A stretch of 63,372 nt of DNA, the filler included, from Collodictyon triciliatum (lineage: Eukaryota), in the NCBI GenBank assembly GCA_043381765.1. It is 4 parts of 4 records of this genome, joined end to end, with 100 filler letters (N's around TTAATTAATTAA, not from the genome) between each part and the next. Parts side by side here need not be neighbours in the genome. Positions count along the whole stretch, not along the records: positions 18,343 to 36,578 come from JBHJMP010001389.1; 3 more parts are not named here. One strand, 5' to 3'. Shown here in pieces: positions 8,178 to 44,196 of the stretch. Below the pieces are notes generated by a model. That model ran no database searches, was not told the origin of the DNA, and saw only the letters and a program-made list of their open reading frames with translations. Numbering within the stretch: position 1 is the first letter of the stretch; each line of letters opens with the position of its first letter. Both the position numbers and the translations under genes were made by a program.

Positions 8178-11284
<3,107 letters not shown>

Positions 11285-12226: not shown

Positions 12227-15200
12227 ATGCTCATTATTCTGAAGCGAGATGTTTGTTCCTCGATCGAATCACAATCGCGGAGTGACGACGCACTTACTCG
12301 GGATAATTCCTTTGAGAAACATAGCAGTGAAACATATGGCATGGGCAGTACAGGCGAAGTACCCCCGGACTCACAAGACGAGATGGGGAATAATGGGGCC
12401 GTACCATTTTTCCATCAAAATCCGGGGTGGAACATTCCCAATGATACGTCTTATTCGAGTCCATCTTCTCCATCGGTCGGCCACAGGGAAATCCTCACAG
12501 AATTTTTCATACTGATGGAGGGAAAAGGCTGGAGAAATCACACGGGCTGGACAGAGCCTCATACATGTTATTGCGCCTGGTATGGAATTGGATGTCTTCC
12601 TTGTAACGAAATGCTGTGCCAGGTAGTCACTTATTTTGGTCATAATTTAAATAAAAATATCTTATTTAAAAAGAGAAAATACAAACAACACAAAACAAAA
12701 ATCACACGAAGGCACATAAAAACACATAAAAACACATAAAAACACATAAAAACACATAAAAACACATAAAAACACATAAAAACACATAAAAACACATAAA
12801 AACACATAAAAACACATAAAAACACATAAGATAAAATGTAAGACATTTCGAGAATGATGTATTTAATTTAAAACATTTACCACTCAGTAATTTGACCAAA
12901 AATTTCCAGATGAACGCATGCCTAGTAAATTCGATGCGATTATCAGAAAATGGTCTCAGAGGCAGATTGGACAATGTCACATCACTGCTGGAAAAACTAC
13001 CTGTGTTGATGTTCTTGGACTTGTCGCTGAACGAAATCGAAGGAACTCTGCCCGAAGTATCATTCCCGAGTCTAATCAGCCTCAATTTGATATACAATTC
13101 TTTGACTGGAGCCATCCCAACGTTTCAAAACACATCATCCATTTTATTCTTACGTGTTGGATACAACAATTTTAATGGGTCATTTCCTGACATCCAACTA
13201 CCCATGGCATTCTTCATCGAAATGAGCAGCAATCATATTTCCGGTAGCATGTCAGACCTTAAAAACATACCATCTACTACCATGTTTTTTGTAAACTTAA
13301 ACAATCTTCAAGGGTCTGTGCCTGACTTTTCGTCTATAAAGCTATCAAAATTTATAATGATGTCGGGTAATAACCTCTCAGGTAGTTTGCCGTCATTTCG
13401 GTACTTGCCAAATTTGATGTTTTTTCACGTCTCAGCAAATCAATTGACAGGTTCAATACCGGACTGTTCCAATATGCCACTATTACTCCGCCTAGATATA
13501 TCCACGAACGAATTTTCTGGAGGTCTTCCTATTGCAAACAGTATACCCCGCGTGATGCAACTTTATGCATTCAACAATAAATTGACCGGAGACATATCAG
13601 TAGTAACGGGTTATACTTTAATGAATACATTATCACTGGCCGAGAACATGCTTGCTGGAGAACTTGAATCGACCCGGTTCATGCCTATTCTGGTTAATTT
13701 GGACTTGTCTGTTAATAACATAACAGGGTCTATTCATGCGTTTTCTTTCAGCCCAGCCTTGCAATCCTTATTATTATTTAGAAATCAAATCACTGGGACG
13801 ATTCCGAATTTTCAATTGCCTAGATTACAATCTCTAGATGTTTCTGATAACAACTTATCAGGGACACTCCCCACATTTGATAAGTTAAAATCACTCTACT
13901 ACTTAGATGTGTCTGGTAACTCTTTACATGGTACATTACCAAAACAACTAGCAACTCTCACATCTCTTGTCGATGCTTTCTTCTCTTCGAATTGCTTTTC
14001 TGGGTCGCTAGACTTCAAATTCTTGTCCCTTCCTTACCTCTCTACATTAGATTTAAAGAGGAATTGCTTTGAAGAAAATCTGGAGACCTTCTACGTCAGG
14101 GAGTGGGACGGGAAAACAGTATTCAATCTTACTTATCTTTCTCTTGACTCCAACAAACTGAGTGGAACTATCGGATTTTATTCATATATACTGTTCCCTT
14201 ATCTTCGAGAGTTCACGATATCAAATAATTCGATTACGGCAATTTCTCCAGCACCATCACTCCGACCATGGAGAAACATAGACATATCAAACAATCCCAT
14301 ATCTGGCTCCATTCCCAACACTTGGAATCTGTTTTCCAAATTATCCTTACTGAATGTCACAGAAACGAAACTCTCCTGGAATAAAACTCAAAGCCTTCCT
14401 CCTTTTCTGATGCCATCAAAGCAGTTTCAAATCCAAACACCAGACTCTAACTTTATGTGCCCCAATATTGTGGGCACTAAATTGGGCACGACTGTGTATA
14501 TGGACCCAAGCTATTACAACTACAAATTCTGTCGCTGCTTGCCCAATCACTATGGGGAAGGGAGTCAGTGCTATGACTGCCCGTCTGCATGTGAGTGCTT
14601 GGGTGGCTCAAATATAACAGGATGTTTTCCAGTCATTTCCAAAAGTACAAGTAGAGCGTTACTCATCCAATGTCCGATGAAATCAGCTTGTAACCCATCT
14701 GCTGAGGAGGAATTCAAGTGCGAGAAAGGATATGAAGGGCGCCTTTGCTCCCGATGTTCTTCAGGCTATCACCAGCAAGGGCGGGAATGCATCGAGTGTT
14801 TGTCATTCTATCGATACTTTATTCCTGTTGCATACCCTATTGGAATAATAGCGCTAGTATGTTACTTGATATGGACTCCACCAAGAGCTACAGGTAAGAA
14901 GAAAAATTGTACTTTGAATAGTATCATATACAATATACTTGTGGCGATTCTTTTTTTTTGGTTTTGTTTTCTCTGCCCCAAAACACTGACTGAATTAGCT
15001 CAAACGCATATATGCTAACATATAGGGTCAATCAAAATATTCTTGTTTTATCTCCAGACATTATCAATATTGTCAACAATATACATGAACATCGGTGGGA
15101 TAACATCCTTTGTGGAAACATCTTTCGCAATATCAAGTTTGAATTTCCCCCTTATTCCATGCTTAATTGAAGAGCCAGGAATTGTAATCGTTACACTATT

Positions 15201-18129: not shown

Positions 18130-18242
18130 AAGCAAAGCAAAGCAAAGCAAAGCAAAGCAAAGCAAAGCAAAGCAAAGCAAAGCAAAGCAAAACAAAGCAA
18201 AACAAAACAAAACAAAACAAAACAAAACAAAACAAAACAAAA
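18130..18242. repeat. (AAAGC)n-(AAAAC)n compound microsatellite at contig end
   Basis: Directly visible. Confidence 0.95.
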
Positions 18243-18342
18243 NNNNNNNNNNNNNNNNNNNNNNNNNNNNNNNNNNNNNNNNNNNNTTAATTAATTAANN
18301 NNNNNNNNNNNNNNNNNNNNNNNNNNNNNNNNNNNNNNNNNN
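18243..18342. other. Artificial contig linker N44-TTAATTAATTAA-N44
   Basis: Identical 100-nt spacer occurs three times; the core has stops in all six frames. Confidence 0.98.
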
Positions 18343-18401
18343 ATCAAAAGATAAAATAAAAATATAAGTTGATGTAATCGCTACCGTCATGAAAAACCAT
18401 T

Positions 18402-18506
18402 AAAAACCCATAAAACCCATAAAACCCATAAAACCCATAAAACCCATAAAACCCATAAAACCCATAAAACCCATAAAACCCATAAAACCCATAAAATCCA
18501 TAAAAT
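18402..18506. repeat. 9-bp tandem repeat (AAAACCCAT)n
   Basis: Directly visible, about 11 copies. Confidence 0.95.
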
Positions 18507-18658: not shown

Positions 18659-21600
18659 ATGGAAATTGAGTGCACCTGTCCCTGTTGTGGGAAAACCTTT
18701 GCCGATCCGCGCATTCTTCCCTGCAAGCACGTTTATTGCGTCAATTGCGTCCAAAAGATGAGCAAAACGCCAGTCGATCTGCTTGACGCAAGCAAAGGAA
18801 CAAAGTCGTGCTGCTTTATCTGTGAGGCTGCGTTTACACTCACGAATGGAAAGCCAGAGAGTCTTCCGCGAGCTGAGGAATATTTGGGCTATGTCGAGAC
18901 ATATAAAAATGCGGCAACGTTTGTGTCCCTCAAATGCGTGGAGCATACAGATAAAGAGGCAATCAAGAGGTGCCTGAGCGGGTGCAGCCACATTTGCCAG
19001 GATTGTTTTTCTGCTCATAGAATTTTGTTGAAAGTTCATAAAATCGAGTACGTCATTATTCATTTTACTTTTAATATGTCAACTTAAATTAGGAAAACAT
19101 GTCTGCAGCATTTCTGCAATTCGAATGCATATACCTTTTCATTTACCTTTTTCCATTTTTTTAAAGGGATATCGACAAAACAAGGCCTGTCGTTTTTGAG
19201 AGTGCCTGTTCGAAACATGCACAACCTTTTACAAAAGTTTGTGGCAAACTCTCAGAAAACCCTTTCATGCGTGATATGTGCACTGGGAGTCACTTCGAAG
19301 AACTAGGAATTCATGAGCATGACAGCTATGAGGCTGGCACAAAGAAATTTTTTCAGCATCTCCAAGAAAACAAGGCGAAAATCGAAAAAACTGGAGACTT
19401 GATAAAAGAAAGTGAGAAAAGAGTCGAGGGAAAGCGCAAAAAGGTATCCATCGCAACTGTATTCGTTCTTTAACAATAAAAACATGAAACCTCATTATCT
19501 CTTTGGGTATAAATCAGATTGAAAATTATATCTCGGAACTGAAGAGAGAAGCGTCGAGCGAGTTCGAAAAAGCAAAGAATGCTATCGCCGAAGAGGAAAG
19601 GCGATTCATGGAGAAGGTTCATATTTTTAAGACTGTCGATTTTATCTTTGAAAATAATTGGATTTTAAGTAATTTATTCATAAAAGATTTCCCACTCACT
19701 CTCTTTCATATAGATTGACCAATTCAACAAATCCATTCTGGGGCCATATGTTGCACTCGGGGATTTCTTGGAAACGTTCAAAATTCATCTGGCGTATTCA
19801 TCAAAGTTTATTGACGAGTCTATCCTTGTGTTTACAAAAGACAAGTCGCCTCTTAAGCTGCCAACTGCAAAGCGCATTTCATATTGTGTATTGCAGAAAA
19901 AAATAGTGCAAATTCCTGAAGAAACGCAAGTTTTCTCGGAGAAAATTCCAACATTGGTTCTCTTTCCTAAAAAATCATCTGAAGTCGAATCTGTGCCAAA
20001 TTCCCAACGACTAGGCACCATAACAGGGCAAAGACAGACTGAAAAGATTTCCAATCCAAGCGCACCAACACAGTCCAACCAACCAGCCAGATCAACATCG
20101 GTGGTCATTCCAGTCAAAAACACTCCAAGAGAATCTGTTACAACCAAAATAAACCGAGTGATTGACCAGATTGGAGAGTCAACAGCTGCAATCAAACAAA
20201 AACAACTAATGGGATGCCCAGAGTATGGCGCATTGGGACAGCAGATGGGCGAGTTACAAACTTTAATGCAACAAACTGAATTCAAAGAAGCACCAAAGAA
20301 AGAGATTGGTGGCATTTTCGACAAATTATTCGAAGCAATCAAAAAGGTACAACTTAATTCATATATATGAACTTGTCTACAATTAGGAAATGATTTTATT
20401 CGTAACATCCTCAAATTATTAAAAAGGACGTAAGTTTTCTATCTTTCCAAAATATCCTGTAAATTAGCAGGTATTTTCTAATCTTGTCAAATTATATTAG
20501 TTGGTGAGTATATATAATTCATGAAAAAATAATTGAGTGCGACTTAATCTATATTTTTTCGTGAAAAAAAATTAGTTTTAATAATCACTTTTAATCGATT
20601 TCAGGTGACTATAATTTTCATTCCATTGTTATTATGATTTATTTGAATTAAAAAATGAAAATATGCTTAACAAAATTTCTGCTAAAAATGATTCAAAATC
20701 ATAGATAGTAATTTTTCTGCTTGAAAGAATAAATTCATAAATCATAAGGAAAATATACATTGTTTATGTAAATTATAGCATATGAGTATGAATTCTAACT
20801 GTTGAGTATTTTAACTGACAGATACCAAAATACTAAAATCAAATATATCGCATCATATACCTAAATTTCATTTGAAATCATAGTATGTAAAATTTTGTTA
20901 TTATTGAATAATACTATGTTATGATATTGCCAATAAACGTACGTGTGTTAATGCAAATAAGTCATGGATATGATAAAAGGAAATGCGTGTTTAACCAACG
21001 CGGACATGAATTCGTATTAATACAATATATGATTTCTGTAACTTATTTGTACATAATCATAGTATGTAAGTTTTTATTGTTCTTGGATGATACTGTATTA
21101 TGAAAATGATAAGAATCGATCGCACATGTGATTATGTAAATATGGGATGACTATTATAAAAGGAAATGCATATTCAACATACACACACGAGTTCGCAATA
21201 ATACAATATTTATGTGATTTCTGTGAATTATTTGTGCATAATCTTAGCCTGTAAGTTTTTATTGTTCTTGGATGATACTAAATTATGAAATTGAAAAAAG
21301 AAGCTTATATTTGTTAGTTATATATGTGATGACTATGATAAAGGACATGTGTGTTCAACAGACACATAAGACTACGCAATAATACAATAATTAATGATTT
21401 CTGTGACTTATTTGTACGCATAATTATAGGGAGTAAGTTTTTATTGCTCTTGAATGATAATCTATTATGAAAATGACAAGAAAGGAGCATGCATATGTTA
21501 GTGTAAATACGTAATGGTTATAATGAAAGGACATGGGTGTTGAAAAGACACACACGAAATTGCAACAATACAATAATCTATGATTTCTGTGATTAATTTG

Positions 21601-24600
21601 TGTGTAACCATAGGTTGTAAGTTTTTAATTTTCTTTGATGATAATCTATTATGAAAATGACACGAATCAAGCATACGTGTGAAAATGTAAAGATAGAATA
21701 GCTAAGATAAAAGGAAATGGGTGTTCAACTGACACACACGAGCTCGCAAAAACACAATACTGACATGATTTCTGTGACTTATTTGATTATAATCACAGAT
21801 GGTAAGTTTTTAATGCTCTTGAACGATAATATATTATGAAAATGACAAGAAAGAAGCATGCATATGTTGATGTAAATACGTAATGATTATAATGAAACAA
21901 TATGTGTGTTCAACAGAAACACATACGAATTCGCAATAATTTAATAATTATATGATTTCTCCAACTCCTTTGTCTATAATCATAGTTCGTAAGTTTCTAT
22001 TATTCTTGAATGATAATATATTATGAAAATGATAAGAAGCATACATTTATTTACCTATATACGTGAAGACAATGATAAATGAAATGAGCGTTTAACAGGC
22101 ACACACGAATTCGCAATAATACAATATTATATTATTCTGTGACTTATTTCATTATTATCATCAAAGAATGTAATTTTTTATTGTTCTTTAATGATACTGT
22201 ATTATGAAAATGATAAGAATCGATCGCACATATTATTATGTAAATATGTAATGACTATGATAAGATGAAATGTATATTTAACAGACATATACGAATTTTC
22301 AATAATAAAATATTTATACGATTTCTGTGACTTATTTGATTATAAACATAGCTTGTAAGTTTATATCGTTCTTGAATGACATTATATTATGAAAAATTAC
22401 AAATAAGAATATTTTATTTGTTTATGCATTTATGGAATTACCATGACTAAAGAAATGAAAGTGTTTAACAGACACACACGAATTCTCAATAATATAAGAA
22501 TTATATGAATTCTGTTACTTGTGTGTATAATTATAGGTTGTAAGTTCCTTTTGTTCATAAATGATACTATATTATGAAAATGACAAGAAAGAAGCATACA
22601 TTTGTGCATGTAAATATGGGATGACTATGATAAAATGAAATGTATGTTTAACAGACATATACGAATTCCCAATAATTCAATATTTGTATGATTTATGTGA
22701 CTTATTTCATTATAATCATCAAAGGATGTGAGTTTTTAATATTACTGAATCATAACCTATTATGAAAATGAAAAGAAGCATACACCTATTTATGTATAAT
22801 ATATATGGAATTACTATGATAAAAGGAAATGGGTATTCAAAAGACACACGAATTCTCAACAATTTAATAATTACAAGAATTCTGTTACTTGTGTGTATAA
22901 TTATAGTTTGTAAGTTCCTTTTGTTCATAAATGATAATGTATTATTAAAATGACAAGAAAGAAGCATACATTTGTGCATGTAAATATGGGATGGCTATGA
23001 TAAAAGGAAATGGGTGTTTAACCGGTACATGCGATTTCTCAGAAATACAATATTTTTTGTGATTTATTTTCTATTGTAATCATAGCATGTAAGTTTTTAA
23101 TGTTCTTGAACCAGTAAAATATTATAAAATGACATGAAAGAAGCATACATTTGTTTATGTAGATTTGAGATGATGAAAGGAATGAGGGTTTTTAACAGAC
23201 ACACATGAATTCTCAATAATAAAATATTTATATGATTCATGTGGCAAATTTGTTTATAATAATAGCCTGTAAGTTTCTATGATAATTGATGGCATTTTAT
23301 TATGATAATGACAAGAAAGAAGCATACATGTTTTTATGTAAATTTGGGATGAATATGATAAAAGGAATGAAAGTTTTTAACAGACACACACGAATTTTCA
23401 AAAATACAATATTTATATGATTTACTAACTCATTTTTGCGTAACAATAATAGTATGTAAGTTATTATTGTTCTTGGATACAATAAATATAAAATATCAAG
23501 GAAAAAACATAAATTTGTAAATGTAAATTTGGGATGAATATGATAAAAGGAATAAACGTTTTTTATAGACTCACACGAATTCTCAATAATATAATAATTA
23601 TATGATTTCTGTGACTTATTTGTGTTCAATCATAGCTTGTAAGTTTTTATTGTTTTTTAATGATGCCATAATACTATAAAATATCAAGGAAAAACACAAA
23701 TTTGTTTATAGATTTATGGGATGGCTATGATAAAAGAAATGGATGTTCAACAGACACACACGAATTCTCCATGATACAATATTTATATGATTTCTGTGAT
23801 TTTTTGTGCATACATATATATAGGTTGTAAGTTTTAATTATTCCCGATTGATACTATAGTATGAAAATGACAAGAATCAAGCATTCATTTGTTAATGCAA
23901 ATATGAGATGAACATGATAAAAGAAATGGAATTTCAACCGACACACTAGAATTAGTAATAACAAAATATTTATATAATTTCTGTGACTTATGTGTATAAT
24001 CGTAGTATCTAAGATATATTTGCTCTTTAATTATAAGATATTATGAAAATGAGAATAAGCAAGCACACATTTTTCCATTTAAATATGTGATGACTATGAT
24101 AAAAGGAAATGTGTGTTTAACAGACAAATGCGAATTTGAAGTAACATGTCATTTTGTGCAATTTATACGATTTATGCGCATAATTATAGTTCGTAAGTTT
24201 CTATTGTTCTTAAATGATACTATATTATGAAAATGACAAGAAACGAGCATGCTCATGTTAATGTCAATATGTGATAATATGATAAAAGGACATGCATGTT
24301 TAACCGACGCGCACATGAATTCGCAATAATACAATATATATATGTGATTTCTATGAATTTCGTGTTTAATCAAAGGATGTAAGTTTCTGTTGTTCTTTAA
24401 TGATACTATATAATGAAAATGACAAGAAAAGAGCATGCTCATGTTAATGTAAAAATGTGATGATTATGATAAAAGGAAATGTGTGTTCAACAGACACACG
24501 AAAACGAAATAATACAATATTTATATGATTACTGTGACCTTTTTATGAGTAACCATAGGGAGTGAGATTTATTGTTCTTGAATGATACTTTATTATGAAA

Positions 24601-27600
24601 ATGTTGAAATAAGTATATATTTTTACGAAAATATGTGATGGATATGATAGAAGGAAATGCGTGTTTAAAAGACACAAAAACTCGCAATAATACAATTTAT
24701 ATGATTTCTGCGAATTATTTGATTATAATCATAGCGAGTAAGTTTTTATTGTTTATGAGTGATACTTTGTTATGAAAATGACAACAAGTATACATTTGTT
24801 AATGTAAATATGTGATGATTATGACAAAAGGAAATGCGTGTTTGACAGACACACGAATTCGAAATAATACAATATTTATATGATTTCTGTGACTTATTTG
24901 ATTATAATCATAGCGAGTAAGTTTTTATTGTTTATGAGTGATACTTTATTATAAAAATGACAACAAGCATACATTTGTTAATGTAAATATGTGATGATTA
25001 TTACAAAAGGAAATGCGTGTTTGACAGACAAACGAATTCGCAATAATACAATATTTATATGATTTCTGCAATTTTTTGTGAATAATCGTAGGTTGTAAGT
25101 TTTAATTGTTCGTGAATCATACTATATTATGAAAATTACATGAAAAAACCATACTTAGTCAATGCAAATATGTGATGATTATGAAAAAAGGAAATGCGTG
25201 TTTGACAGACAAACGAATTCGCAATAATAAATTATTTATATGATTTCTGTGACTTATTTGATTATAATCATAGCGAGTAAGCTTTTATTGTTCATTAATG
25301 ATACTATAATATAAAAATGACAAGAAAAAAAGCATATTTAGTTAATATAAATATGTGATAATTATGATAAAATGAAATGAGTGTTAAACCGACACGCACG
25401 AATTCTCAACAATAAAATATTCATATGATATCTGTGACTTTTTTGTGAATAACCATAGGGAGTAAGTTTTTTGTTATTATTGAATCATAATATATTATGA
25501 ATTTGAAAAGAAAGAAGAATAAATTTATGTATTTAAAAATATGATCGATATGATAGAAGGAAATTGTTTCTTAATAGAAACACTCAAATTTGCAATAATA
25601 CAATATTTATATCATTTCTGTCACTTATTTGTGTATAATCATAGCTTGTAAATTTTCGTTCCTATTTAATTATACTTTATAATGAAAATGACAAGAAATA
25701 AGCATGTATTTGTTAATATAAATATAAAACGACTACGACAAAATGTTATGGATGTTAAATAGACACACACGAATTCGAAAAAATACAATATTTATATGAT
25801 TTTTGACTTATTTGTGTACAATCTTAGCGTGTAAGCTATTATTGTTCTTGAATGATATCGCATTTTGAAATTGTCAAGATAGAAGCATTCTTTTGTGTAG
25901 GCAAATATGAATTGACTATGATAAATGGAAATTTATTTTAAACATACAGAAACTAATCCGCAATAATACAATATTTAAATGGTTTCTGTTACTCGTTTGT
26001 AATTATGATAGGTTGTGAGTTTTTATTTTTTCAACTGATAACACAATAAGATATGAAATTTCATTAAATTAAGAAGCTATCGTTTATTATTTTCGTATGA
26101 AACTAGGAATATGTGGTTAATTTATATGATATTTAAAAGACAATTGAATTCTTAATCCAATATCAATTCAATTTTGTATGTTTTTTCTGCAAATGTCACA
26201 ATCATACAATTCCATGCATTTTAATTTCGTTTGATAAGCTGATATTAATTTTTATTCTATCTTATTCTTGATGACTGATTCAGGAGGTAAGTTTCAAGTC
26301 AATATAGGTTAAACAAAAATATGATAGTTAAAGTATGTTTAATTCTAAACCAATTAAGAGAATTAAAAATTCAAACATCATTTACGCAGAAACCAGCGGA
26401 TGTAATTTGGCGAAATTAATTCTGAATAGATTATTATATTTATTCACTTTACTAATTTTATGTTCATATTTAGCTGGTAACTAAAAGAATAATGAATTTT
26501 TATCATTCATAATTCTGAAATTATAATAACTTTACTAATTTAAATTATATCCAGGATAAGGTAAGTCAAATTCTATATCCTTTATTTTCTCCAAAATAAC
26601 AAATCGCAGTTTAATAAAATTCATTATCTATGTTGGTTAAAAACACTAGGATTTTGTGGGTTTCTAATATATTAGATTAAATATTATCTTTATTTCCAAT
26701 TCTAAGCTTTCCTTGTTTAAAATGTCACTTCTGATTATAATTATTTTAATTAAAAATTAATTTTCATTAAAAATTTATTTCAAAACATCAAATGCCATAT
26801 TTTAAAATTTTCAATAACATTCATTAAATTTTAAAGGGAGTATGCTTTCTCGAATTTTTTTTCGAAATTGAAATCAACAGTGTGCTTAATCAATTATTTG
26901 TGAAAAGGGAGTAACCATTCTTTTGATATTTTGAATATTATTCAATTAAATGAAAATAGTATTTTAAAGGATGTATTTTCTTAATCTTAAAATCAGGATG
27001 TGAGATTATAGAATCAAAATGATATTTATTTTGTAAAATATTTATGTCAACATCCAATAATTTACCAACAGGACGTAATTTGCTAATATATATAAAATTG
27101 ATAGAAACACTTTCTACTCACACATTTTTGTAAGCTGGCTGTAAGAATAATAAATTAAAATAAGACAAAAATTAAAATCCATAATATTAACCTCGTCTTT
27201 CTTTAGCTTCGGCTGGTAAAAATTACCATTTTAAAATCAAAAAGTTCAGTACAGCTATACTTCGATTCTTAATATCTTTTCCTCAGGTTAAGATTGTAAT
27301 CTGATATTTTTTGTTATTTTGGAGGGAATCAAAATTTTAATCAAATGCTGTAAAAGGCTGTAAGCTTTAATATTCATTCAAATATCAGAATATGCTTTCA
27401 GATCCTAACCATAATGTTCTACAAATTTCAATCAGCGAGAAATGGTATTTATTTTTCATCGCTCATTTAAACATCATTCATTAACTGACACACAAAACAG
27501 AAGCAACTGGTATTTTGTAATCAATTCCATCGTGTCAATTAATCTACTTCCATTCTAGAGCCTCATAATTTTCCTAGTATCAATAACATCTGCATTCTTA

Positions 27601-27930
27601 TTATTAGGCGGTTTGCTTTATAATTTTCAATTTGAAATCAAACCTTTTTTTCCTTTATTCGATTCAGATTATATTTGAAATCAGGGATGTTTTATTTACA
27701 CACTGATGATATGCTCATTTTTTTATCAGGGAGACTCGGTATACATGAACGCCTTATTCCTCATTTAAATTATCCCGTAATTGGTATCTTATAATTTCAT
27801 TCTTTTATAAAAACCTTTATTTTTAATGTTATTTCAGAATATCCACGTAAGATTTCTATTCCATTTCAATAATAAAACAATAATCCCTTAATCTTATAAG
27901 CCATGTGATTATGCTTTTGTTGCAAAATGA
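18659..27930 (+). CDS. TRIM-like RING / B-box / coiled-coil protein; conventional exons 18659-19048, 19167-19443, 19518-19616, 19714-20346, then a predicted chain of about 45 microexons and a terminal exon 27901-27930
   Basis: RING CPCC..PCKHVYCVNC..CFIC; B-box CVEH..CLSGCSHICQDCFSAH; second B-box-like CSKH; coiled coil. Exon 4 ends in phase 0 (AAG|GTAC) and downstream AG|3n|GT units continue without a stop to PCDYAFVAK*. The RBCC part is well supported; the 3' extension is inferred. Confidence 0.7.
20690..26040 (+). repeat. Tandem array of 30 AT-rich units (period 176-188 bp), each an intron-like repeat plus a variable 3-nt microexon
   Basis: Conserved ...gatttctgtgacttattt...aatcatAG|NNN|GTaagttttt...atgaaaatgacaag... 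in each unit; 29 of 30 units keep both AG and GT. Confidence 0.9.
26284..27930 (+). other. Series of 3-, 6-, 9- and 12-nt in-frame microexons separated by non-repetitive ~55-180-nt introns, plus terminal exon
   Basis: AG|exon|GT at 26284-6, 26390-401, 26474-6, 26555-60, 26650-5, 26837-9, 26908-10, 26997-9, 27072-4, 27135-40, 27207-15, 27287-95, 27357-9, 27436-44, 27501-9, 27608-10, 27730-8, 27838-46. Confidence 0.7.
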
Positions 27931-30900
27931 AATTTAAACCGAAGCCTCCAAAAACAATTAATCATTCTGGGAACAGCAGGGATAAGGTTTTATTTCATAT
28001 CAAACACATTTATGTTAGTCCTCTTCATTCTTTTAAAATAGAAATATGTAATGTTATTTTTTTGTTGACCTAACTACTGATTCGAAAATGCAGCCAGACT
28101 ATTCATTTTTTTATGGTCGCTTGGATAAGTGCGACTCTCGAGTTGTAAGTGTCTCGATTTCAAAATTGGTTGACGTTCTCTTGAATTAAATTTTATAACT
28201 TTATTAATCAATTATGAATTTCTTTAAAAAGAAATGCGACGGCGCTGACTTGACTCTTCTCATCTCTTCCTCTTGCTTCTACTTCTCACACTCTCACGGC
28301 CGGGTTTTTTTAAGCACAAGCTTTTTTCCCGAGAGCCATTCCCCTTATTCTACTTTCATTCTTTCATCCACTACCGAAACACAAATAAAAATGAAAACAG
28401 AACCAGATGAATAAGATTCCTTCCTTGATTTACAAAAAGAATGTCTGTTTTTGGATTAAAAACGGTAATTAATAGGCCAAAATACTATAACCATACTGCA
28501 CACCAGCAATGCTGTAAAAAAGCTTGCTGTATTTTAACATGAATAATTCCATTTACTTGTTGATGTTAAATGTCACTTGTTTTAAATATTAATGCGTGCT
28601 ATGTTTATCTCTCGAAAATATTGTCCTTTTGGAAAACCTAAGTAACGAATAGATTTTTCATCAAAATACGTAATAGTTTCTTAGTTTGATTATATCAAAT
28701 ATTATGCTAAATACAACCAGGTTAAATATTTTTGAACTGGATATCTATGAAGGGCAAACAATAAAAAAAATTTGGAATATGGTCTGGACAATTAGACTCA
28801 TGAAAGTTTTGTCAAAATGACCATTCATGAAAGCAATTTCAAATGGGTAATTTTTCCTCTTTTTTGAAATTTCAGATAGTTCTCTTAAATTATAATCAAT
28901 CACAAACAAGAGTGACAAAATGATTTTATTAAAGAAAATCAGACGAAATAGAGAAGAATTGTTTTTTTTTAAGAAAAGTGTTTAAGTTTCCAAGGAAAAG
29001 AAACAGTGCTTTAATAATTGAAATTCCGACGGTGATATTCACCGTTTTGAAAATCATTATTGGTCCAAAATAGCATGTTACATTCATTCCTATCCTTTTG
29101 TATTGTTTCTTGTTTTCTTAAAATTCTATTGAAGAAAACTGGAGTCGACTCAGCATCCCAACAGACCAAGGTTATCGAGATATGAACTAAATTTTTTGAA
29201 TGCTTAGTTGAAGTTTTTTGAAACTTTTTATGAATCAATACTCTTCAGTTTAGCGGGCATTAAAAATTCCACTCTTTGTCTCAGATAATCCTCTATTACG
29301 AAGGTTACACATTTGAAGACTACTCATGTATGACATGGCCACAAAATATAAAGGGAAGAATTTCTATCCGTATTGCAGCCTAAAAACTTGAAGTGAATTA
29401 TTAATATCTTTTGCACAAAATATTGTCTCTCAAGATGCAAGTCTTCAGCACGTTCTCAGGAAGTCGTTTTTTCCTCGAAAATTCCCTTAAAAGAGTGAAC
29501 TCTATTTTTTTGGAGATAAAACCGAAAATTTTCATATAATTTGTCTATAGTTTAAATTCGATAAGATAAATATTCGAAGAGGAAATGAAGTATATAGCAG
29601 ACTATAACTATTTATGTGACTCATCGTTTCCTTCCTCGCCCAGGTTTTTTTTGTATTTTCGTCTTTTTATAACGCTCAGATTTATCGGAACCGGTGGCAA
29701 TTTTTCTCAACTATTCATGTATTTCATTTACAAAATAAGTGTATTGCACGAATAATGGCCACTATTTTGTTCTGAAAGGGCAATAGCACAGAGACACCCT
29801 TTCTATCTCAATTTTTTTTTGTTAAATTTCGGATTATTTGTCTGAAGAGTTCATTTTCGAATTTTGATGAGGAATGATAGCCAACTAAAGCATAATAAAT
29901 AGAATTCATAGCTAATAAATGGGGCAATATATTTAATATGGGCGATTTATTTACGAGACTCCACAATATTCAATTTGGATGTAATTTGATGATATCTGTT
30001 GCAATAACAGATAATTGATTTGAATGCGATGAAGGCACACTCTCTTCTATGCGGTTATATTTATACATTTAATTATAGCGAGTCTATTTTCTCAGAAAAT
30101 TTGGTATATGGTTCACTAGAATCAGTGACATCAAAAGCGCTATATTATCTCTTAGAAGTCCGATGTATTTCTGCATCATTAACTGAAACAATAATACGAA
30201 ATGACGTTGCATATTCAAAAAAATTTTCCATGGTCGAACTCAAGAAATACAAAAACTTTACAACATCTAATATTAGAATGACCAGCGTCAATAACTTTCG
30301 TTACCCGATGAAAATCAGTATGACATATTTCGATTACAAAATTCTTGATCTTGACTCTGTCAAATCCAAAATCACGGATCATAATATATTTTCTATCAGG
30401 CAACATGAAATCAGCTAAAATCAGCTAAACTGATAACGATTATGTCGCCAATGATTACTTTCCTTCCATTCAATTATAACCGAGCCTTAATTTTAGTTGA
30501 CTTTAAAATGCGACACAAAAAACACTGGGCTTTACGTGTGCAGATAATTCGTGTCCATGTTATTGAATTCATAATCATTTCCTTGCTTACAAAAAATATC
30601 ATTAATTAGATCTTACCGATAGATATTGATAAAATTTGGTCCTTTGTTTGCACGCGTTGAATGTATAGTTTCGGGGTACTCTTCAGACATTCCAGCGTGA
30701 CTTCTTCTGTGATGATTACAAGGCTGATTATTTCTGTACTTGCCCCAAATCAATGGACTTTAAGAATTATAGGCTATATGCCCCATAAAATTTGCACATA
30801 TAGACTGATATTGCCATTATATTCAATAGCCGTATAGGTATGAACGTGGATAATCGCTTTTGAAGAGAAAAAGACGAGAGTGACGTCAGGATTGGTACTA

Positions 30901-34982: not shown

Positions 34983-36578
34983 TTATTCGTGTGAGTCGGA
35001 AGGATGAGATCGAATGAAAGAAAGTAAAAAGGAGGTTAAGCAAAATGCTTCACTTGGCGCGCAACTCGTCACGGGCCCTCCTCCTATCCAAGCGATGTTG
35101 AATAAATCACACAAGTATGTCGAATCATTCGTTGAACAAAAAACAGTGTTGCAAAAGTTTGGGGAAGAAGAGAAAGAGGATGACCCAGAAACTTGTGACA
35201 GGTTATGAGTGGAACAGGAAGCAGTTATGGTAAAAACAGATATTGGGAAGCGTTGTTGTACCTCAGAGCCACTTTCGTAAATCGCAAGCTCCACGTTTCC
35301 TTTTGCCTTTGAACGAAGCAGTGTGTATTGCTCGCTGATGCTGCGGTGGCGATTCCACAACACACCTACCACAACCAAAAGGAAAATAACCACTGCGACG
35401 GAGCCGACAACCGCCATCACCGGAACAGGGAATTCATCTGAACCGTATTAATTCGTATTTAAGATGAAGGTGGCTTGTTGTAGTGATGCTAGAAGAGTTG
35501 AGGCAAGTCAAGTCAAGTCAAGTCAAGTCAAGTCAAGTCAAGTCAAGTCAAGTCAAGTCAAGTCAAGTCAAGTCAAGTCAAGTCAAATCAAATCAAATCA
35601 AATCAAATCAAATCAAATCAAATCAAATCAAATCAAATCAAATCAAATCAAATCAAATCAAATCAAATCAAATAGCGAATAGAGCTATGAATGAGGAAGT
35701 TAAGTTTTGTTTGGCCTTTTCTGGTTTGCCCACAATACCGCAGTCCTCGATAATATCTTTCGGTTCGTCTCCAAAGCAGGTGGAAAGTTTCAGATGTGTT
35801 GTCAAGCGTCGACCGTTTTCGCAGCGCCCTTGGAAAGGCTTCAGGTCAGCGGCCTTGCAAACGGGGCATCCATACTTTGAAGTCCAGCGGATGACGTGGT
35901 TGCATTCTTCTTCTGTAGCGTTGAAGACAGGAATCCCCTTTTCGTAGTTCGGGTCACATTCGAATCGTATAGTGCTAGCGGTTAATTTGTTCATTTATTT
36001 ATTTTAATCAATTGTAATTCTTAATTTTGTCTGTGAATAAGATTATAAGTTTGGATAAATTAATGCCGTTCGAATCTCAAAGATTGTATTGTTGTCAGCC
36101 ATACGTTGAGAGACCGTCGGGACATTTCTTTGTGGATTTTCCATTGGAATAGATAACGACCAGGCCTTCCAGTCCCTGGGCTAAGATATGGGTGGAATTG
36201 TTTTAATAGGTATGTATATTAAGACTTAGATTACAAACACATCAGGATACATGACATGGGCATGCTTAATTAGGTTGGTGTTGATTATATTCTCACCGAA
36301 ACTCATGTAGCTTCCTGTGTTTGAGTGACTATCGACAGAACTTGCCTTCATTTTGTAAAGTGGTATTTTATTAAAAAAAAAAAAAAAAAGTAATCGTAAA
36401 GTGACGGCTTCGGGGGTGTGAGAAAAATAGGAGAAAGCATACCTAAGAAACATCAACGCGTCTAAAAATATTGCAATATAATATGTCCTTACAAAAAAAA
36501 AATTAAAGGGAGAAAATACCATGCAAGCAAACGGCTGTTGGGAGCACAGCGAATCCACTGGCGTGGGCCTCTTGCACA
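34983..36578 (-). CDS. C-terminal part of a type I membrane protein with an MRH (mannose-6-phosphate-receptor homology)-like domain, ELAPOR/KIAA1324-like; 5' truncated by gap
   Basis: STIRFECDP...ECNHVIRWTSKYGCPVC, Cys-rich linker, TM VMAVVGSVAVVIFLLVVVGVLW, cytosolic YTLL motif; 3' end uncertain. Confidence 0.65.
35504..35672. repeat. Intronic compound microsatellite (AAGTC)n-(AAATC)n
   Basis: Directly visible. Confidence 0.95.
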
Positions 36579-37274: not shown

Positions 37275-40200
37275 TTATTTCTGCTGTGGTTGCGCAATGG
37301 TGACATCCTTCAGGCCGTCGAGGAAATGCTGAAGCGGGATGTTCGGGTTGAGGTAGTTGCGTCGTTGCAGCTGAGCGGCGTGATTCTCCTCGGGTGCGTG
37401 AACGTGATGGTGCGTGTGGGACTGAACAATGACAGATGGATTGGCAGCTGCTTGAGTGGAGGCCACATTGGTCGAAACAGGCTGCGAGGGCTGGTGGAGC
37501 GAATCGGCCTTGGAGGACAACGGACTGGAGCCAACTTCGGCCTCTGCTTTGCGCTCAGGAATCTCGCGTCCGCGATGAGTTCCTCGCCTTGTTGCTCGGT
37601 CGCCTTTCAAACCTGACGGGGTGGACGGGCTGCCGCTGGTAGAAAGCGGGGCGGGCGATATGCTGAGGGAGGCTCCGCTGGCGACTGCGGCTGGCTTGCT
37701 GCCGATTGGGATGCACGAGGAAGTGGCGTTGGGGCTTGCGGCTGGCTCGGCACTAGGAGTTGGTGTGGGGACTGCTGCGGCTGCGTAAGAGATGTGCATA
37801 AAAGAAAAAAAAAAGCGATTATCGGCGTGGTATGACTCGTCTCTTTGGTGCAGAATGCTCGAACCTTTCTTTGACATCCCTCTTCTCTCCACTTCCCACG
37901 GACTCTGGTTGGCGCCAGGGCTCATGGAAATCTCAAGACGGAAGCGCGCAGGGTCGTCCAATGGGCGGCTGGGGTTTTCATACAGGCGGAAGACGATGTG
38001 AGTCAGATAGTTGATTTCAAACTGCTCTCGGAAGCGGTCGGCAAGGCGCGATGAAATGATGGGTGGGGCGTCCGGGTATATCTGCGCGGTGGATGCGATA
38101 ATTGTTTGTAATAAGTAGCTGTGGTGAAAAAGGGATGTGGCGGTGATGATGGATATAATAATGGAAGAAGGAGGAAAAGGGAGACGGAAAAGATTCGAAG
38201 CGCAAAAGGTAACACCAGCCGATTTCAAAGATAGCCGATGTATTGGAATACGAGAAGAGAAGAAGACGAGAAGACGAAAAGAGAAGACGAAAAGAGGGGA
38301 CGAGAAGAGGGGACGAGAAGAGGGGAATGCAGATGAAAATGTGGATTAATTAACAGACATCGCTGGTGTATCGGAGAACGTTCAGCAGGGAATGAAGATG
38401 AGACTCGCTGGTAAAATACAGTCTGGAATACAAATATATTTAAAAAATGCACTGAATGAATTGCTCTGCATGTCAAGCTCAAATGTTTATAAGTTTGAGA
38501 GAAAGGACGTATTATTTGACCAGAATTTGATTACAATGAATTGAACTATTGTTAATACACTAGGAATCACGACAGTCTGAACAACAATAGGAAAATCAAA
38601 TATATGCGAGTACCTTGTTCGGACGAATTCTTCTCCGCTCTCTCCGCTCGGCCCACTCGAGCGGTTCATAATGTTGGATAGCTTGGACGTATAGGTCTCT
38701 CCAGGAATCGGGGCGGTAGAGACTGGGTCTATCAGAGATGAAATCAGGTCGCTCTGGATCTTGTTCAGTAGTAACTGACACATCACGGAGCCAATCTCGA
38801 CTTTTTCCTGTGCAGTCATTCTGCATGTTTTGGTATTCCATTCCCATATAGGAATAAAGTCAAATCAGCATCGATGCGAATGAGAATAAACTTGTAGAAG
38901 TGTTTGGATTTCAGGGAATCAATTAATGGAGTGTAGCTTCACGACCCAAAACAAAAGAAAAAGGTAAAGGTAAAAGGGTGGTGATTGCAGTAGGCAATTT
39001 GATTTGTTTTGGATGGAGGAAAAAAGAAAATACACAAACCCATATTCCTGCGGCACCACAATATCATTTAAGGATTTGGCTTGGTTATAAAGTTCACGAA
39101 TATTTTTAAGTCCAAGTTTGAAGTTGTGAAGCGCATCATATTTGATACAATCAAAAATATCTGGTATCTTGCTAATGTTGTACTCATTCTTTCTTTTGCA
39201 AAAGAAATCGCTTTCCAGCTTTTGCCATCTCGCAAACATCAAATGTATTGTTTCTTGCTCGCAAAGGGTGTGTGGTGGCTAATGTATTTGCGATATAATC
39301 AGCAAGATTTGCATAGAGGCCATGTTCGATTGAACTGTAGGCATAATTAACGAAAATAAGAGTTTGTAATTTGGGTAAAACATTAAGTTTCTTTTTTTTA
39401 AAAGAAAAATGTTTTTAATTACAGGTTTCCCTGCCATGAGAGCAGCTTCCGTGTTTTGAACCATAACTCTGAGCTGAGCAGTAATCGATTTGATGGTATC
39501 GTACAGTCGCATGAGAGACCTGTTTATTGTTCACGTAAGCTCATAAAAGAATGTGCATATTTAAGTGGTATATTAATATTTGCTTTTTGTTGGCAATTAT
39601 GAGCTGGAGTACCTTCTCGGGTTTCCAAGCTCCTTGAGCATTCGAATGGGTGGGTAGCTTCGTGCTGGGGTGTTCATCAGTTCTTTGATATAGCTCTTGG
39701 GTGCGCAAATAGGATCATTGAATTTTTAATGTAATGAGTTATACTGTGCTCAGTTTGAAAGAAATGTATGTGTTTACGCATATAAGACAACGCTTGAGCA
39801 AACGCGATTACTGAAAAGAGTGTACAAATAATGAATGAAGCATTTAAAAGTCATTTACCTCTTCCATGACATTGTCAGAGCTCATGATAGTAAGCAAACG
39901 CTGTTTTGTTTCTGTGATTCTGCCATCTGTCTCTCCAGTTACATCAAGCAACTCATTTGCGGATTGGTCTTTTCGCACAATGCTCACCAGAATAGGCGTC
40001 AGCTCTCCTTCGAGATTAAGAAATCCTCTAGAAAAGGCAGCGGCTGTCATTTGCACTCTGCCTTCATCGGATGCATAGATCTTAAGATCGTGCCTATTGG
40101 CACTATGCAATCTCACCAAGCCATGGAAGGCATCTTTGTGTGACGATAAAAAAAAAACATCAGTTAAAAATAATACAACTCATCTGTAATGAGAATAAAT

Positions 40201-43200
40201 TTTTTTAAAAATAAAAAAAAAATTGGGCTCTATTGGTTAAAGGCCTCTTCATTCTACGTATATTGTATATCAGTTCGACTTTATGTTATTTTGTTGGTAT
40301 TTACCAGAATACATCGTCTGGCGGAAAGTAGTTCCGAGAGCCTCGGCCTGCTTCTGCCCTGCGTGGGTCAGCTCTCCACCCCACTTCAGAACGAATAGTG
40401 CCTGGTCAACAACTTCGTACTGCTCTATGACCTTGGGCTCCTCTCCATCCACTGGCTCGGACATTACCACAACTTTTCGTGTCTTTGTCGGCTTCAGCTG
40501 AGCCTTTCGATTAATACCCGAAAACTGAGTTCCAAACTTGCCGTCTCCTTTTAACTTGTGCGATTTTCGCTCAAGCACCTGCTTTATTTGGAGAATCTTT
40601 TCAAAGTATTCCTCTTCTTCAGCCTCTTCTTTGGATCGCTTAAGCTGTTGGTCATCTTGGCCACTCGAGTCTGCGGGCCCTAATGTTGCCAACACTGGCA
40701 CTTGGCTTGGTGGCAAAGAGTCCTGTGTCTTTTGCGTCTCGAATGGATTGGCCTTATGTTCCGTAGTTGGTGTGGACACAAGCACAGGGATGGGAATTCC
40801 TCGGGCTCTACGCTTTTCCACCAAGTCGTCGTAAACTTGGTTTGTGACATCAAGCAAAGCCTGTAATTCCACCGCGGATTTGAGCTTCAGTTCCCTGATT
40901 TTGGGGCGCCCGTTGGAATCTTTGCTTTTAGAGAACTTATCAAACATCTGCAAGTAGCGTGAGTCTGTCATTTTGATTTTAAGCTTCTGTTTGGGGGTGC
41001 GGTCGCCATGGCGAATGACAGCGATGATACATCGGAGGAATTCCGGATTTTTCTTGACCACCTTCATGAACTGAGTGGGCTGTGCTTTTGGGCTGGGGAC
41101 TGTCTGTGGTGTGCTTGGTGAAGTTTCAGTGTTCGAAATAACGTCTGTCAAAGAGGCACCCGGCATGAGTTGAGGGATGTTACCAAGATTGCCACTGGAC
41201 TGATCAGACATGATGGTGCGGTAAAGGTCTGTTTGTTTTATAAAGCGTCGAATGAGGAGCTTTCGGATGATCCGAGCAGAATCATCATAGTACTTGACAG
41301 AGTTTTTCACAAAGCTCAGTCCGTTGACATCACAGACATATGATTTACTGTCATCACGAAGGAGGTCGAACCCGCAAATACTTTGCTTAAAGGCCAAACT
41401 GATTTGCAGTGCGACATTCTTTTCAAAGGTGGTAAGCATGATTGGATATCTGACTTCTTTCCCTTCAGCATCTCGCTGTACTCGCCCATCCACCACGGGC
41501 GACTTCCTAGCCTCTGCGTGAGAATATTCGCGCCCGACAGAGTAGACTTTGATGTCTGTCCCCTCGGTCGACAGAAACTCTTCATATATGTACGACCTAT
41601 CTCTCCGAACGTTGGAGACATCGGGATAAAACTGGCTGCTTCGATTCTCGATCTTGCGAAAGAGGCGTTTGCTTCCTCCTCCAGCAGACTTTGGGTAGTA
41701 TATGTAAATGTTGTGATTTTCTCCACTTACAGGCTTTTCGACGAAAGGCTTTTCGATACGACGGCCGTCAACAACCACCGCATCCTCGTATTCTTCAAAG
41801 GTACTCCAGTCCTCGGGTTTTGTTTCAGGCTCCTTTGGGACGTTTTCAGGTGCAAGCTCCTTGGAAAGCTCCTTTACGTTTTCCTCAGTGACTTTGGGAG
41901 TTCCACGATTCATCACCACATGGTGCGGAACCGGGATGCCGTAGTCTTGGAGGATTTGGTACACTCTCCTTCGATCTAGAAGCTCCCTTTGCATAGATAT
42001 GTCGTTTATCTAGGGGGGAGGAAAAAGATACGCATGAATTAGATGTGCGATTCACGTTCAAATTGTGACATCATGTACTGCGTGAAACTACGTAAGTTGA
42101 ATGAATATAAAGGAAAACCTGATAGGGCTTTCTTAATGCCACGTATGCCTCTGCTTTGCTAAGTGGAAACCCAGTGGAATAGAAGCAAAGAAATGCGTCA
42201 CATTTTGGCCACTCATCAATAGGCTTGTCGAATATGATGTCTTCAGTAAACATGATAATCTCAAAGTTTTGGTAGTTTCGAATACGATTCAGAATCTCCA
42301 TCATCGGCTTTGCACTGACCTGCGCAATATTATATTTCTAAAAATGTATATATATATATTCTAAAGAGAAGCTTATGATAAAGAAGTAGTATGAGAAAAA
42401 CATATGAACAGAAAGGAGACTTCCTGATAAGCTGTTATGATGATATCTTTTACATGTTGGTTGTTTTGTTTTGTGTTTTAGTAAGATTATTATCATAAAG
42501 AAAACATTTCGCGTGTTCTGAATAAAAAAAAAAAAAGGGTCTTTTAAAATTGGTTCTATGTCTATCAGAATTTGGTATTGAATTTGATTATGTTTTCGGA
42601 ATACACGAACCTTCTTTTCCATGGCGCATATACCAAGCTTGATGAGTCTCCTTTGTTTCAAAACCTGATTGCGAGACTCACGTTTGTTTCGCAACGGAAG
42701 GTTTGTGGATGAAATGAATGGAGAAATGCTGGAAGCTATTTGCCCGAGCGAGCCGAATGAGACTGTGCGGGACGAAAGTGCAGTAGAAAAGTCTAGTAAA
42801 AAGAAATATAAGAAAATAGAAAGGGTGTGATAATTTACATGCAAGTTTGAGTTTATGATAGAATTAAGTCATCTTATGAGAATGAACACGGTAGTTTTTA
42901 TCAGGAATATCTTTTAAAATCAACATGTAGGTTTTAATATCTAAATAAAAATCGTGGGTGGAGTAAAAACAGAGAAAGGACTGGATTGCCTTAGTGATAA
43001 ATATGTGCATATATATGGAGTGCCCGCCAAACTCCGCAGAACGAGATGTATAAAAGAAGACGAAAAGGAGAAATATTCAAAGTTTAAATGAATCTGAAAA
43101 ATAAAGTGAAGCATTGGACTTTGAATCGAATAAAGGGAAGAAAAAAAGTGAAGCATTGGAGGTGGTGCACAAGAAGGAAAATAATATGCAACAGAGAAAG

Positions 43201-43634: not shown

Positions 43635-43639
43635 GCTTT

Positions 43640-44041: not shown

Positions 44042-44196
44042 ATATCCGCCGCTCCTGCTGTGTCTCCGACCTTTGAGATTTATAGTGTGCTTGTGGCAAA
44101 CGCCCCAATGTCTGAGAAATGGCGCCCGTCTTGATTTCGCAGGCTGGGCAATTTTTTGACATCGGGGTGTATTCGGTCTTGAAGGCTGGAAGGTGC

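What the first reader, a model, noticed from the sequence alone, without database searches (positions are those of the whole stretch)
18659..27930. TRIM-like E3 ligase whose target-recognition end may be built from variable microexons: candidate diversified defence system
Established: in TRIM/RBCC proteins the C-terminal domain (e.g. PRY-SPRY of TRIM5/TRIM21) determines substrate or pathogen specificity. Seen here: RING, B-boxes, coiled coil, a Ser/Thr/Pro-rich linker and a helical segment, followed by the microexon-encoded part. Inference: a hypervariable segment, rich in aromatic, hydrophobic and Arg residues, sits between two helical regions and is coupled to a ubiquitin ligase. This could give a protist an antibody-like repertoire against intracellular bacteria or giant viruses.
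Basis: inference. Interest (0 to 1): 0.82.

Follow-up and report, generated by a model that had tools for sequence, protein, structure and literature searches.

The report
Single-codon exon array behind RING gene
A freshwater protist's RING-type ubiquitin-ligase gene is followed by about thirty near-identical short introns separated by only three bases each, which look like one-codon exons that change much faster than the introns; I found no description of this layout, saw it again in fungal DNA, and had no RNA data to prove it is spliced.

Summary
The anatomy is real. A four-exon gene on the + strand (18659-20346) encodes a TRIM-like RING, one weak B-box, a long helix, a disordered linker and a helical end. 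It stops at a phase-0 donor. From 20884 to 26014 there are 28 tandem units of 173-185 nt. Each is a canonical intron: 27 of 28 start GT (20 GTAAGT) and 28 of 28 end AG. The units are separated by exactly 3 nt. Further lone AG-NNN-GTRAGT sites flank the array on the same strand.

On a tree of the units, triplet positions 1 and 2 are the two fastest-changing of 185 columns, and position 3 changes less. None of the 34 triplets is a stop. This fits one-codon exons read in phase 0 and selected at the amino-acid level.

Four metagenome contigs, two of them kinase genes related to Glomeromycota and one an ankyrin gene, show the same layout with unrelated introns.

No RNA data were available, so splicing and translation are inferred. 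Nothing supports or tests isoform diversity or a defence role. The nearest named relative is Diphylleia rotans. Six literature searches found no description of such arrays.

The parts
18659..19047 (+). Exon 1: start codon, TRIM-like RING, one weak B-box-like finger. Ends GA|GTACGT (phase 2).
19167..19443 (+). Exon 2: Cys/His-poor stretch (no B-box detected), then a long helix.
19518..19616 (+). Exon 3: charged, helix-like continuation (33 codons).
   Evidence: read from the sequence
19714..20346 (+). Exon 4: disordered Ser/Thr/Pro-rich linker, then a helical bundle of about 70 residues. Ends AAG|GTACAA in phase 0.
   Evidence: no relatives found
20347..20370 (+). Alternative ending: if the donor is not used, 7 more codons and then TGA.
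20425..20712 (+). Three lone candidate one-codon exons ahead of the tandem units, in sequence unrelated to the unit: triplets at 20427-20429, 20501-20503 and 20705-20707, with donors GTAAGT, GTGAGT and GTAATT.
20884..26014 (+). Tandem array: 29 triplets separated by 28 intron-like units of 173-185 nt. Each unit has a 5' GTAAGT-type donor, in 13 of 28 a CTNAY branch-like motif 10-35 nt before the end, and a 3' TAG, AAG or CAG.
24006..24014 (+). The one unit whose donor is dead (CTAAGA). Its triplet would be lost in a double-length intron.
26282..26566 (+). Candidate microexons after the array, in non-repeat sequence: 26284-26286 (donor GTAAGT), 26474-26476 (donor GTAACT) and a 6-nt one at 26555-26560 (donor GTAAGT).
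26900..27930 (+). The 3' end of the gene is not established.
   Evidence: read by eye; unverified

Best explanation
The RBCC-like gene does not end at exon 4. Its transcript runs on through an array of short introns, each removed on its own by intron definition from 5' to 3'. Each removal leaves one codon joined to the growing exon and places it directly before the next strong donor. The C-terminal part of the protein is thus built one residue per exon: about 30 residues from the tandem units, plus a few from lone microexons on either side.

The array grew by tandem and segmental duplication of an [intron + codon] module. This is tolerated because every splicing outcome stays in frame. After duplication the codons diverged quickly at their first two positions while the introns stayed alike.

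Shown: the anatomy, the phase, the rate contrast and the recurrence of the layout elsewhere. Inferred: splicing, translation and selection on the residues. The default product would be one fixed hydrophobic, aromatic and Arg-rich tail, not a repertoire.
For: 1. 27 of 28 units start GT (20 GTAAGT) and 28 of 28 end AG (24 TAG). Introns are 173-185 nt, similar in size to the organism's own introns.
2. The spacing is exactly 3 nt at all 29 sites, although unit length varies by 12 nt and is not held to multiples of 3 (residues mod 3: 6, 7 and 15 units).
3. Exon 4 ends in phase 0 at a donor. None of 34 triplets is a stop, with P about 0.03-0.04 from the local composition. Offsets 1 and 2 of the joined triplets hit stops early (read by hand from the list).
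4. On a tree built from intron columns, triplet positions 1 and 2 each show 14 changes. They are the top two of 185 columns (intron mean 3.4, median 3, maximum 13). Position 3 shows 8. Position 1 is 68% G+C against 25.5% in the array region.
5. Three more AG-NNN-GTRAGT sites, and a 6-nt exon with a GTAAGT donor, lie on the same strand in flanks unrelated to the unit. By my hand estimate about 0.1 such sites are expected by chance.
6. The same layout with unrelated introns occurs in 4 of 97 metagenome loci. One follows an ankyrin ORF ending in phase 0, with TACTAAC-type branch sites. One sits between a start exon and a kinase exon and stays open.
Against: There is no transcript evidence of any kind.
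- The stop-free result is only mildly unlikely, and it is not unlikely at all (P 0.33) if the triplets' own composition is taken as the background.
- The exon 4 donor (GTACAA) is weak, and a stop follows 7 codons later if the intron is retained.
- The first acceptor after exon 4 is a poor AAG.
- A CTNAY branch motif is found in only 13 of 28 units.
- The intron interiors could be kept alike by constraint or gene conversion, which would mimic fast-evolving triplets.
- In locus L088 a related array lies upstream of a start codon, so such arrays need not be coding.
- For L009 the open frame is expected in 1058 of 2000 random orders of its triplets.
- No terminal exon or stop was identified.
Confidence: 0.5

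Rival explanations
1. The array is transcribed and spliced but not translated. It would lie in an untranslated region (the 3' UTR of the RING gene, which then ends at 20370, or the 5' leader of the downstream LRR gene starting near 31929) or in a non-coding RNA. The triplets would be meaningless spacers.
For: In L088 a homologous kind of array ends directly upstream of an exon carrying a start codon. A stop lies 7 codons after exon 4. No terminal coding exon was found.
Against: This does not explain why positions 1 and 2 change more than position 3, the match with exon 4's phase, or the lack of stops. Thirty introns in a 3' UTR would normally expose an mRNA to nonsense-mediated decay (established knowledge). 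The LRR gene starts 5.9 kb beyond the array.
Confidence: 0.2
2. Plain intergenic or intronic satellite. The gene ends at 20370 and the splice-like motif of the repeat is an accident of the founding unit, copied 28 times.
For: All 28 units descend from one unit, so their motifs are not independent. The region is AT-rich and lacks long ORFs.
Against: The variable spot falls exactly between AG and GT. Lone sites of the same form lie in unrelated flanks, on one strand only. Independent arrays elsewhere sit in frame next to coding exons.
Confidence: 0.12
3. Host gene for intron-encoded small RNAs, as in SNORD115/116. Each intron would carry a conserved small RNA, and the tiny exons would be free to drift.
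For: This would explain conserved introns with variable exons. One of the 28 units gives a weak match to a C/D-box family (snoZ163, 21.7 bits, E 0.42). Many units hold a small GT-rich/AC-rich hairpin.
Against: The match is far below the gathering score of 39 and is seen in only 1 of 28 units. RNAalifold finds no shared structure, with 0 pairs. The box-C-like GTGATGA is not conserved across units. The 63-nt introns of L066 are too short for a snoRNA (the size limit is from my own knowledge). This reading does not explain the codon-position pattern.
Confidence: 0.07
4. The triplets are included in varying combinations, giving each cell or clone a different recognition segment on a ubiquitin ligase, which is used against intracellular bacteria or viruses.
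For: In phase 0 any subset of one-codon exons stays in frame and free of stops. The residues diverge fast. The RING is most similar to those of TRIM5, TRIM21 and TRIM34.
Against: There is no evidence of alternative inclusion. Short introns favour constitutive removal (established knowledge). No recognisable binding domain was found: Pfam found no family in the 136-aa and 68-aa ORFs downstream, and nothing else downstream of exon 4 was searched. Similar arrays sit in kinase and ankyrin genes, which suggests a general gene-structure phenomenon rather than an immune device.
Confidence: 0.07

Closest known systems
Micro-exon genes (MEGs) of schistosomes
   Same: Runs of very short, frame-preserving exons. 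PMC10526429 gives 3-81 bp (abstract seen in the listing). They are thought to vary the protein by exon skipping (recalled: DeMarco et al. 2010).
   Different: MEG exons vary in length, and their introns are long and are not tandem copies of one another. MEG products are secreted. Here every array exon is one codon, the introns are one repeat family, and the gene starts with a RING.
Recursive splicing and RS-exons
   Same: A 5' splice site is re-formed right after the upstream junction, so a long stretch is removed stepwise from 5' to 3' (PMC6224609, abstract seen in the listing).
   Different: Recursive sites leave 0 nt, or an exon that is later removed. Here each step would keep 3 nt, and the steps are tandem repeats.
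Intron gain by tandem genomic duplication
   Same: Tandem duplication creates new, frame-neutral splice-site pairs (PMC4974935, abstract seen in the listing).
   Different: That model duplicates an exonic AGGT segment once to make one intron. Here the unit is a whole intron plus a codon, repeated 28 times.
Isolated 3-nt exons in animals
   Same: They show that a 3-nt exon can be spliced. Examples: the RPS24 microexons (PMC12686416, abstract seen in the listing) and the NCAM AAG exon (recalled).
   Different: These are single exons, not arrays, and their flanking introns are unrelated.
TRIM/RBCC E3 ligases (TRIM5, TRIM21, TRIM34)
   Same: RING most similar to TRIM RINGs, a B-box-like finger and a long helix.
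   Different: No second B-box, no PRY-SPRY or other known C-terminal domain, and a non-animal lineage.
SNORD115/116 host-gene arrays
   Same: Tandemly repeated introns with conserved interiors between short exons (PMC11608373, abstract seen in the listing).
   Different: Those introns carry clear C/D snoRNAs. Here nothing reaches a family threshold.

Membership tests
TRIM/RBCC E3 ligase | N-terminal RING finger | tested here: met
   Pfam zf-RING_UBOX 25.7 bits against 25.2 and zf-C3HC4 24.7 against 21. All 8 PDB matches are TRIM RINGs.
TRIM/RBCC E3 ligase | One or two B-box zinc fingers after the RING | tested here: inconclusive
   zf-B_box 19.5 bits, below the cut-off of 24.1, at residues 92-129 of exon 1. 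Exon 2 gave no B-box match.
TRIM/RBCC E3 ligase | Coiled coil after the B-box | tested here: inconclusive
   A single helix over residues 54-90 of exon 2, pLDDT about 70-75, from a model made without an alignment. No coiled-coil predictor was run.
TRIM/RBCC E3 ligase | Known C-terminal substrate domain (PRY-SPRY, NHL, filamin and the like) | tested here: not met
   Exon 4 has no significant Pfam family and no relatives. The downstream ORFs have no family.
Micro-exon gene (MEG-like) | Consecutive symmetric microexons that preserve the frame | tested here: met
   29 triplets in the array plus flanking 3- and 6-nt candidates, all multiples of 3. This is at the DNA level only.
Micro-exon gene (MEG-like) | Signal peptide and a secreted product | tested here: not met
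   The N-terminus is a RING finger starting at residue 7. No signal-peptide predictor was run.
Micro-exon gene (MEG-like) | Isoform variation by exon skipping | not testable with these tools
   No RNA run was listed.
Introner-like mobile intron | Near-identical intron copies dispersed in many unrelated genes | tested here: inconclusive
   A profile of the unit finds 28 copies, all within the array, and none elsewhere in the 63-kb window. The whole genome is not held. In the Glomeromycota-like contigs one unit family does occur in two loci.
snoRNA host gene | Conserved C and D boxes with a terminal stem in each intron | tested here: not met
   One of 28 units matched, at 21.7 bits against a gathering score of 39. 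There is no consensus structure.

The most novel reading that the evidence does not exclude
Arrays of one-codon exons are a real and so far undescribed eukaryotic gene architecture, present in at least a collodictyonid-like protist and in fungi. Tandem duplication of an [intron + codon] module would lengthen a protein one residue at a time. Every splicing outcome stays in frame, and the codons then diversify under selection, so new peptide sequence is built from scratch. Variable inclusion could additionally yield many tail variants of a ubiquitin ligase from one gene.
Probability: 0.35. Interest if true: 0.85.

Novelty: new variant of a known kind. Interest (0 to 1): 0.72.

Why it matters
If the triplets are spliced in, this is the densest run of minimal exons I know of. 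It would be a natural test of how a spliceosome handles 3-nt exons in series. It would also be a new route to protein sequence: residues added singly by repeat expansion, each free to evolve alone.

The same layout in kinase genes related to Glomeromycota and in an ankyrin gene suggests a general process that gene predictors miss. Affected proteins would then be mis-annotated as truncated. The idea can be tested directly with one long-read cDNA experiment.

Tried and rejected
- Own genome: not held.
- RNA: no RNA holder was listed.
- DNA runs X1-X4: only scattered pieces of about 151 nt. A few are identical to the array (X2 at 20939-21089 and 24589-24739). Only two pieces reach a triplet (21063-21065 and 24735-24737), and both are identical there. 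No strain comparison was possible.
- Exon 4 relatives: none among longer proteins. One weak hit, E 8.6e-5, in 1.84 billion representatives.
Most are (GTAA)n-type microsatellites. L053 is a 22-nt satellite. L095 has a constant TTT triplet. L022, L024, L078 and L081 are irregular or simple-repeat-like. Only L003, L009, L066 and L088 were kept.
- Exon-shredding idea (a normal exon cut at every codon by a mobile intron): rejected. The spacing is always 3 nt, and by eye the L009 triplet-coded stretch does not resemble the zinc-finger region that 19 paralogues have at that place.
- Repeat read as a continuous ORF on either strand: rejected, because unit lengths are not multiples of 3.
- Structured RNA in the units: Rfam gave nothing at threshold and RNAalifold gave 0 pairs.
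- Earlier findings of this scan: nothing relevant.
- Folding spliced isoforms: not done, because joined sequences cannot be handed to the fold tool.
- One search failed on a mis-set frame and was corrected.
- Literature: no paper describing tandem arrays of 3-nt exons. Supplementary files were not seen.
Full report
**What is there**

The window is eukaryotic, with spliced genes read in the standard code. No whole genome is held for it. On the + strand an ORF starts at 18659. Reading the splice junctions from the sequence gives four exons: 18659-19047, 19167-19443, 19518-19616 and 19714-20346.

- Exon 1 carries a RING: Pfam zf-RING_UBOX 25.7 bits against a cut-off of 25.2, and zf-C3HC4 24.7 against 21.
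- All 8 of its matches among solved structures are TRIM RINGs (TRIM34, TRIM21, TRIM5, TRIM69; E 3e-4 to 7e-3).
- One B-box-like finger scores below threshold (19.5 against 24.1 bits).
- A second B-box was not found.
- AlphaFold models made without alignments give a long helix at the end of exon 2 (residues 54-90, pLDDT about 70-75).
- In exon 4 they give a low-confidence first 137 residues, followed by helices over residues 142-210 (block means 68-88).

Exon 4 has essentially no relatives. There were none among longer proteins, and one hit at E 8.6e-5 among 1.84 billion representatives.

**The array**

Exon 4 ends AAG|GTACAA in phase 0. If that donor is ignored, a stop follows after 7 codons.

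Tandem Repeats Finder then reports 28.1 copies of a 185-nt unit from 20876 to 26027, with 73% matches. A profile of the unit finds 28 copies, all on the + strand between 20887 and 26011, and nothing significant elsewhere in the 63 kb.

Every unit is bounded by splice-like signals:

- 27 of 28 begin GT. Of these, 20 are GTAAGT. One unit is dead (CTAAGA).
- 28 of 28 end AG: 24 TAG, 3 AAG and 1 CAG.
- Lengths are 173-185 nt.
- A CTNAY motif lies 10-35 nt before the end in 13 of 28.

Between each AG and the next GT there are exactly 3 nt, at all 29 sites. This holds even though unit length varies by 12 nt and is not kept to multiples of 3 (6, 7 and 15 units in the three residue classes). That variation also rules out reading the repeat as a continuous ORF on either strand.

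The exact motif AGNNNGTAAGT occurs 24 times in the window against 1.17 expected (largest of 100 shuffles: 4). Of these, 22 lie on the + strand between 20425 and 26292.

Sites of the same form also lie outside the repeat, in sequence unrelated to the unit, and on the same strand:

- triplets at 20427, 20501 and 26284, with GTAAGT or GTGAGT donors
- a 6-nt exon at 26555-26560

In these flanks GTRAGT occurs 5 times on the + strand and once on the minus strand.

**Are the triplets special?**

In an alignment of the units, the three columns between AG and GT have top-base frequencies of about 0.3, 0.3 and 0.6. Nearly all other columns are at 0.6-0.99.

On a tree of 27 units built from the intron columns only, Fitch counts are 14 and 14 for triplet positions 1 and 2. 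These are the two highest of 185 columns (intron mean 3.4, median 3, maximum 13). Position 3 has 8 changes, and 13 intron columns reach that value.

Position 1 is 68% G+C against 25.5% in the array region.

None of the 34 triplets from 20427 to 26476 is a stop. The probability depends on the background chosen:

- about 0.03-0.04 from the local composition
- 0.33 if the triplets' own composition is used

So this point is weak on its own.

Fast change at the two positions that decide the amino acid, slower change at the third, and agreement with the phase of exon 4 is the pattern expected of translated codons under selection for change. A mutational hot spot, or a barrier to gene conversion, would not single out positions 1 and 2.

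**The same layout elsewhere**

I made one scan of metagenome contigs for three such sites at 160-190-nt spacing. Most are (GTAA)n-type simple repeats. Four have the same anatomy with unrelated unit sequences.

- **L066.** A 450-codon ankyrin ORF (Ank_2, E 3e-86) ends in phase 0 at a donor. It is followed by 63-nt introns with GTAAGT, ACTAAC-type branch sites and TAG, each separated by a variable triplet.
- **L009.** Its best protein matches are Rhizophagus kinases, at up to 72% identity. A 52-nt start exon and a kinase exon (Pkinase, E 6e-9, for the next exon) are separated by 18 triplets with introns of about 95 nt. The frame is open with all triplets included, and also with all skipped. It is also open in 1058 of 2000 random orders, so this says little.
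- **L088.** It has the same unit family, but its array ends just upstream of an exon that carries a start codon. Such arrays therefore need not be coding.
- **L003.** A further family, with units of about 170 nt.

In all three families the triplet columns are among the least conserved of their neighbourhood: the lowest in L066 and L009+L088, and position 1 in L003.

These loci were found by searching for the motif, so the motif's presence is not independent evidence. The flanking in-frame exons, the branch sites and the triplet variability are independent.

**Rival readings tested**

- Small-RNA host gene: the only Rfam signal is a snoZ163 match of 21.7 bits (gathering score 39, E 0.42) in 1 of 28 units.
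- RNAalifold finds no shared structure.
- A short GT-rich/AC-rich hairpin recurs in many units. I do not know what it means.
- Assembly artefact: unlikely, because units differ by about 27% and several metagenome pieces match the array exactly. Those runs may not be independent of the assembly.

**What could not be tested**

- No RNA holder was listed.
- The four DNA runs gave only scattered 151-nt pieces.
- Spliced sequences cannot be handed to the fold tools.

Splicing, translation, the 3' end of the gene, isoform diversity and strain diversity therefore all remain open. Candidates beyond 26.6 kb have weaker donors and were read by eye only.

**Organism**

The PPIP5K exon of the window is 65% identical to a transcript-derived protein of Diphylleia rotans. 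It is at most 47% identical to every other protein among the best 120 listed. The DNA turns up at low share in freshwater metagenomes.

**Comparison and novelty**

Single 3-nt exons, schistosome micro-exon genes, recursive splicing and intron gain by tandem duplication each share one aspect with this locus. For these papers I saw only the abstracts shown in the search listings.

None of them combines one-codon exons in series with tandemly repeated introns. Six full-text searches found no such description. The one paper that mentions 3-nt exons in a protist genome (PMC12584245; passages read) does not describe arrays.

**Verdict**

My best reading, at 0.5, is a C-terminal tail built from one-codon exons that arose by repeat expansion. 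The defence-repertoire idea is unsupported, at about 0.07.

Noticed in passing
L009 (minus strand), L088, L066 (minus strand), L003: Four metagenome contigs carry arrays of short canonical introns (63-175 nt) separated by variable 3-nt spacers. They sit next to kinase exons related to Glomeromycota (L009, L088) or an ankyrin ORF (L066); L003 has no coding flank on the contig. L009 and L088 share one intron family at two different loci.
   Followed up: partly
window 20887-26011, about unit positions 100-130: Many units hold a small hairpin (a GT-rich arm, a loop of about 5-9 nt and an AC-rich arm), with some changes on both arms (for example GTATAT/ATATAC). RNAalifold did not call it.
   Followed up: partly
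window 21258-22554: One contig of run X2 joins 21258 to 22554, skipping 1295 nt (seven units), with 5 other letters in between. This may be a copy-number variant of the array or a repeat-collapse artefact of the contig assembly.
   Followed up: no
window 18130-18505; also about 10084-10623, 35468-35947 and 43400-44230: Pentanucleotide (AAGCA)n and 9-mer (AAAACCCAT)n microsatellites lie just upstream of the RING gene, beside a run of N. Similar 5-mer repeats recur between genes across the window.
   Followed up: no
window 30008-30418 (+): A 136-codon open frame in a 31% G+C stretch between the array and the next gene. It matches no Pfam family. Its length is unexpected for this composition.
   Followed up: partly
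window 12835-15018 (+) and 31929 onward (+): Two LRR genes. One is a 727-codon exon with plant-type LRRs and a DUF7630 cysteine-rich module. The other starts MGNS..., which is myristoylation-like by my reading.
   Followed up: no
window 62944-63372 (-): Fragment of a reverse transcriptase with a zf-RVT finger (E 1.5e-8). It is a retroelement at the edge of the window.
   Followed up: no
window 37299-42772 (-): A PPIP5K/VIP1 gene that aligns along its length to the Diphylleia rotans protein, with ordinary introns of roughly 50-230 nt and loose donors (GTTTTC, GTAAAT, GTACTC). The strict GTAAGT of the array is therefore not the organism's norm.
   Followed up: partly
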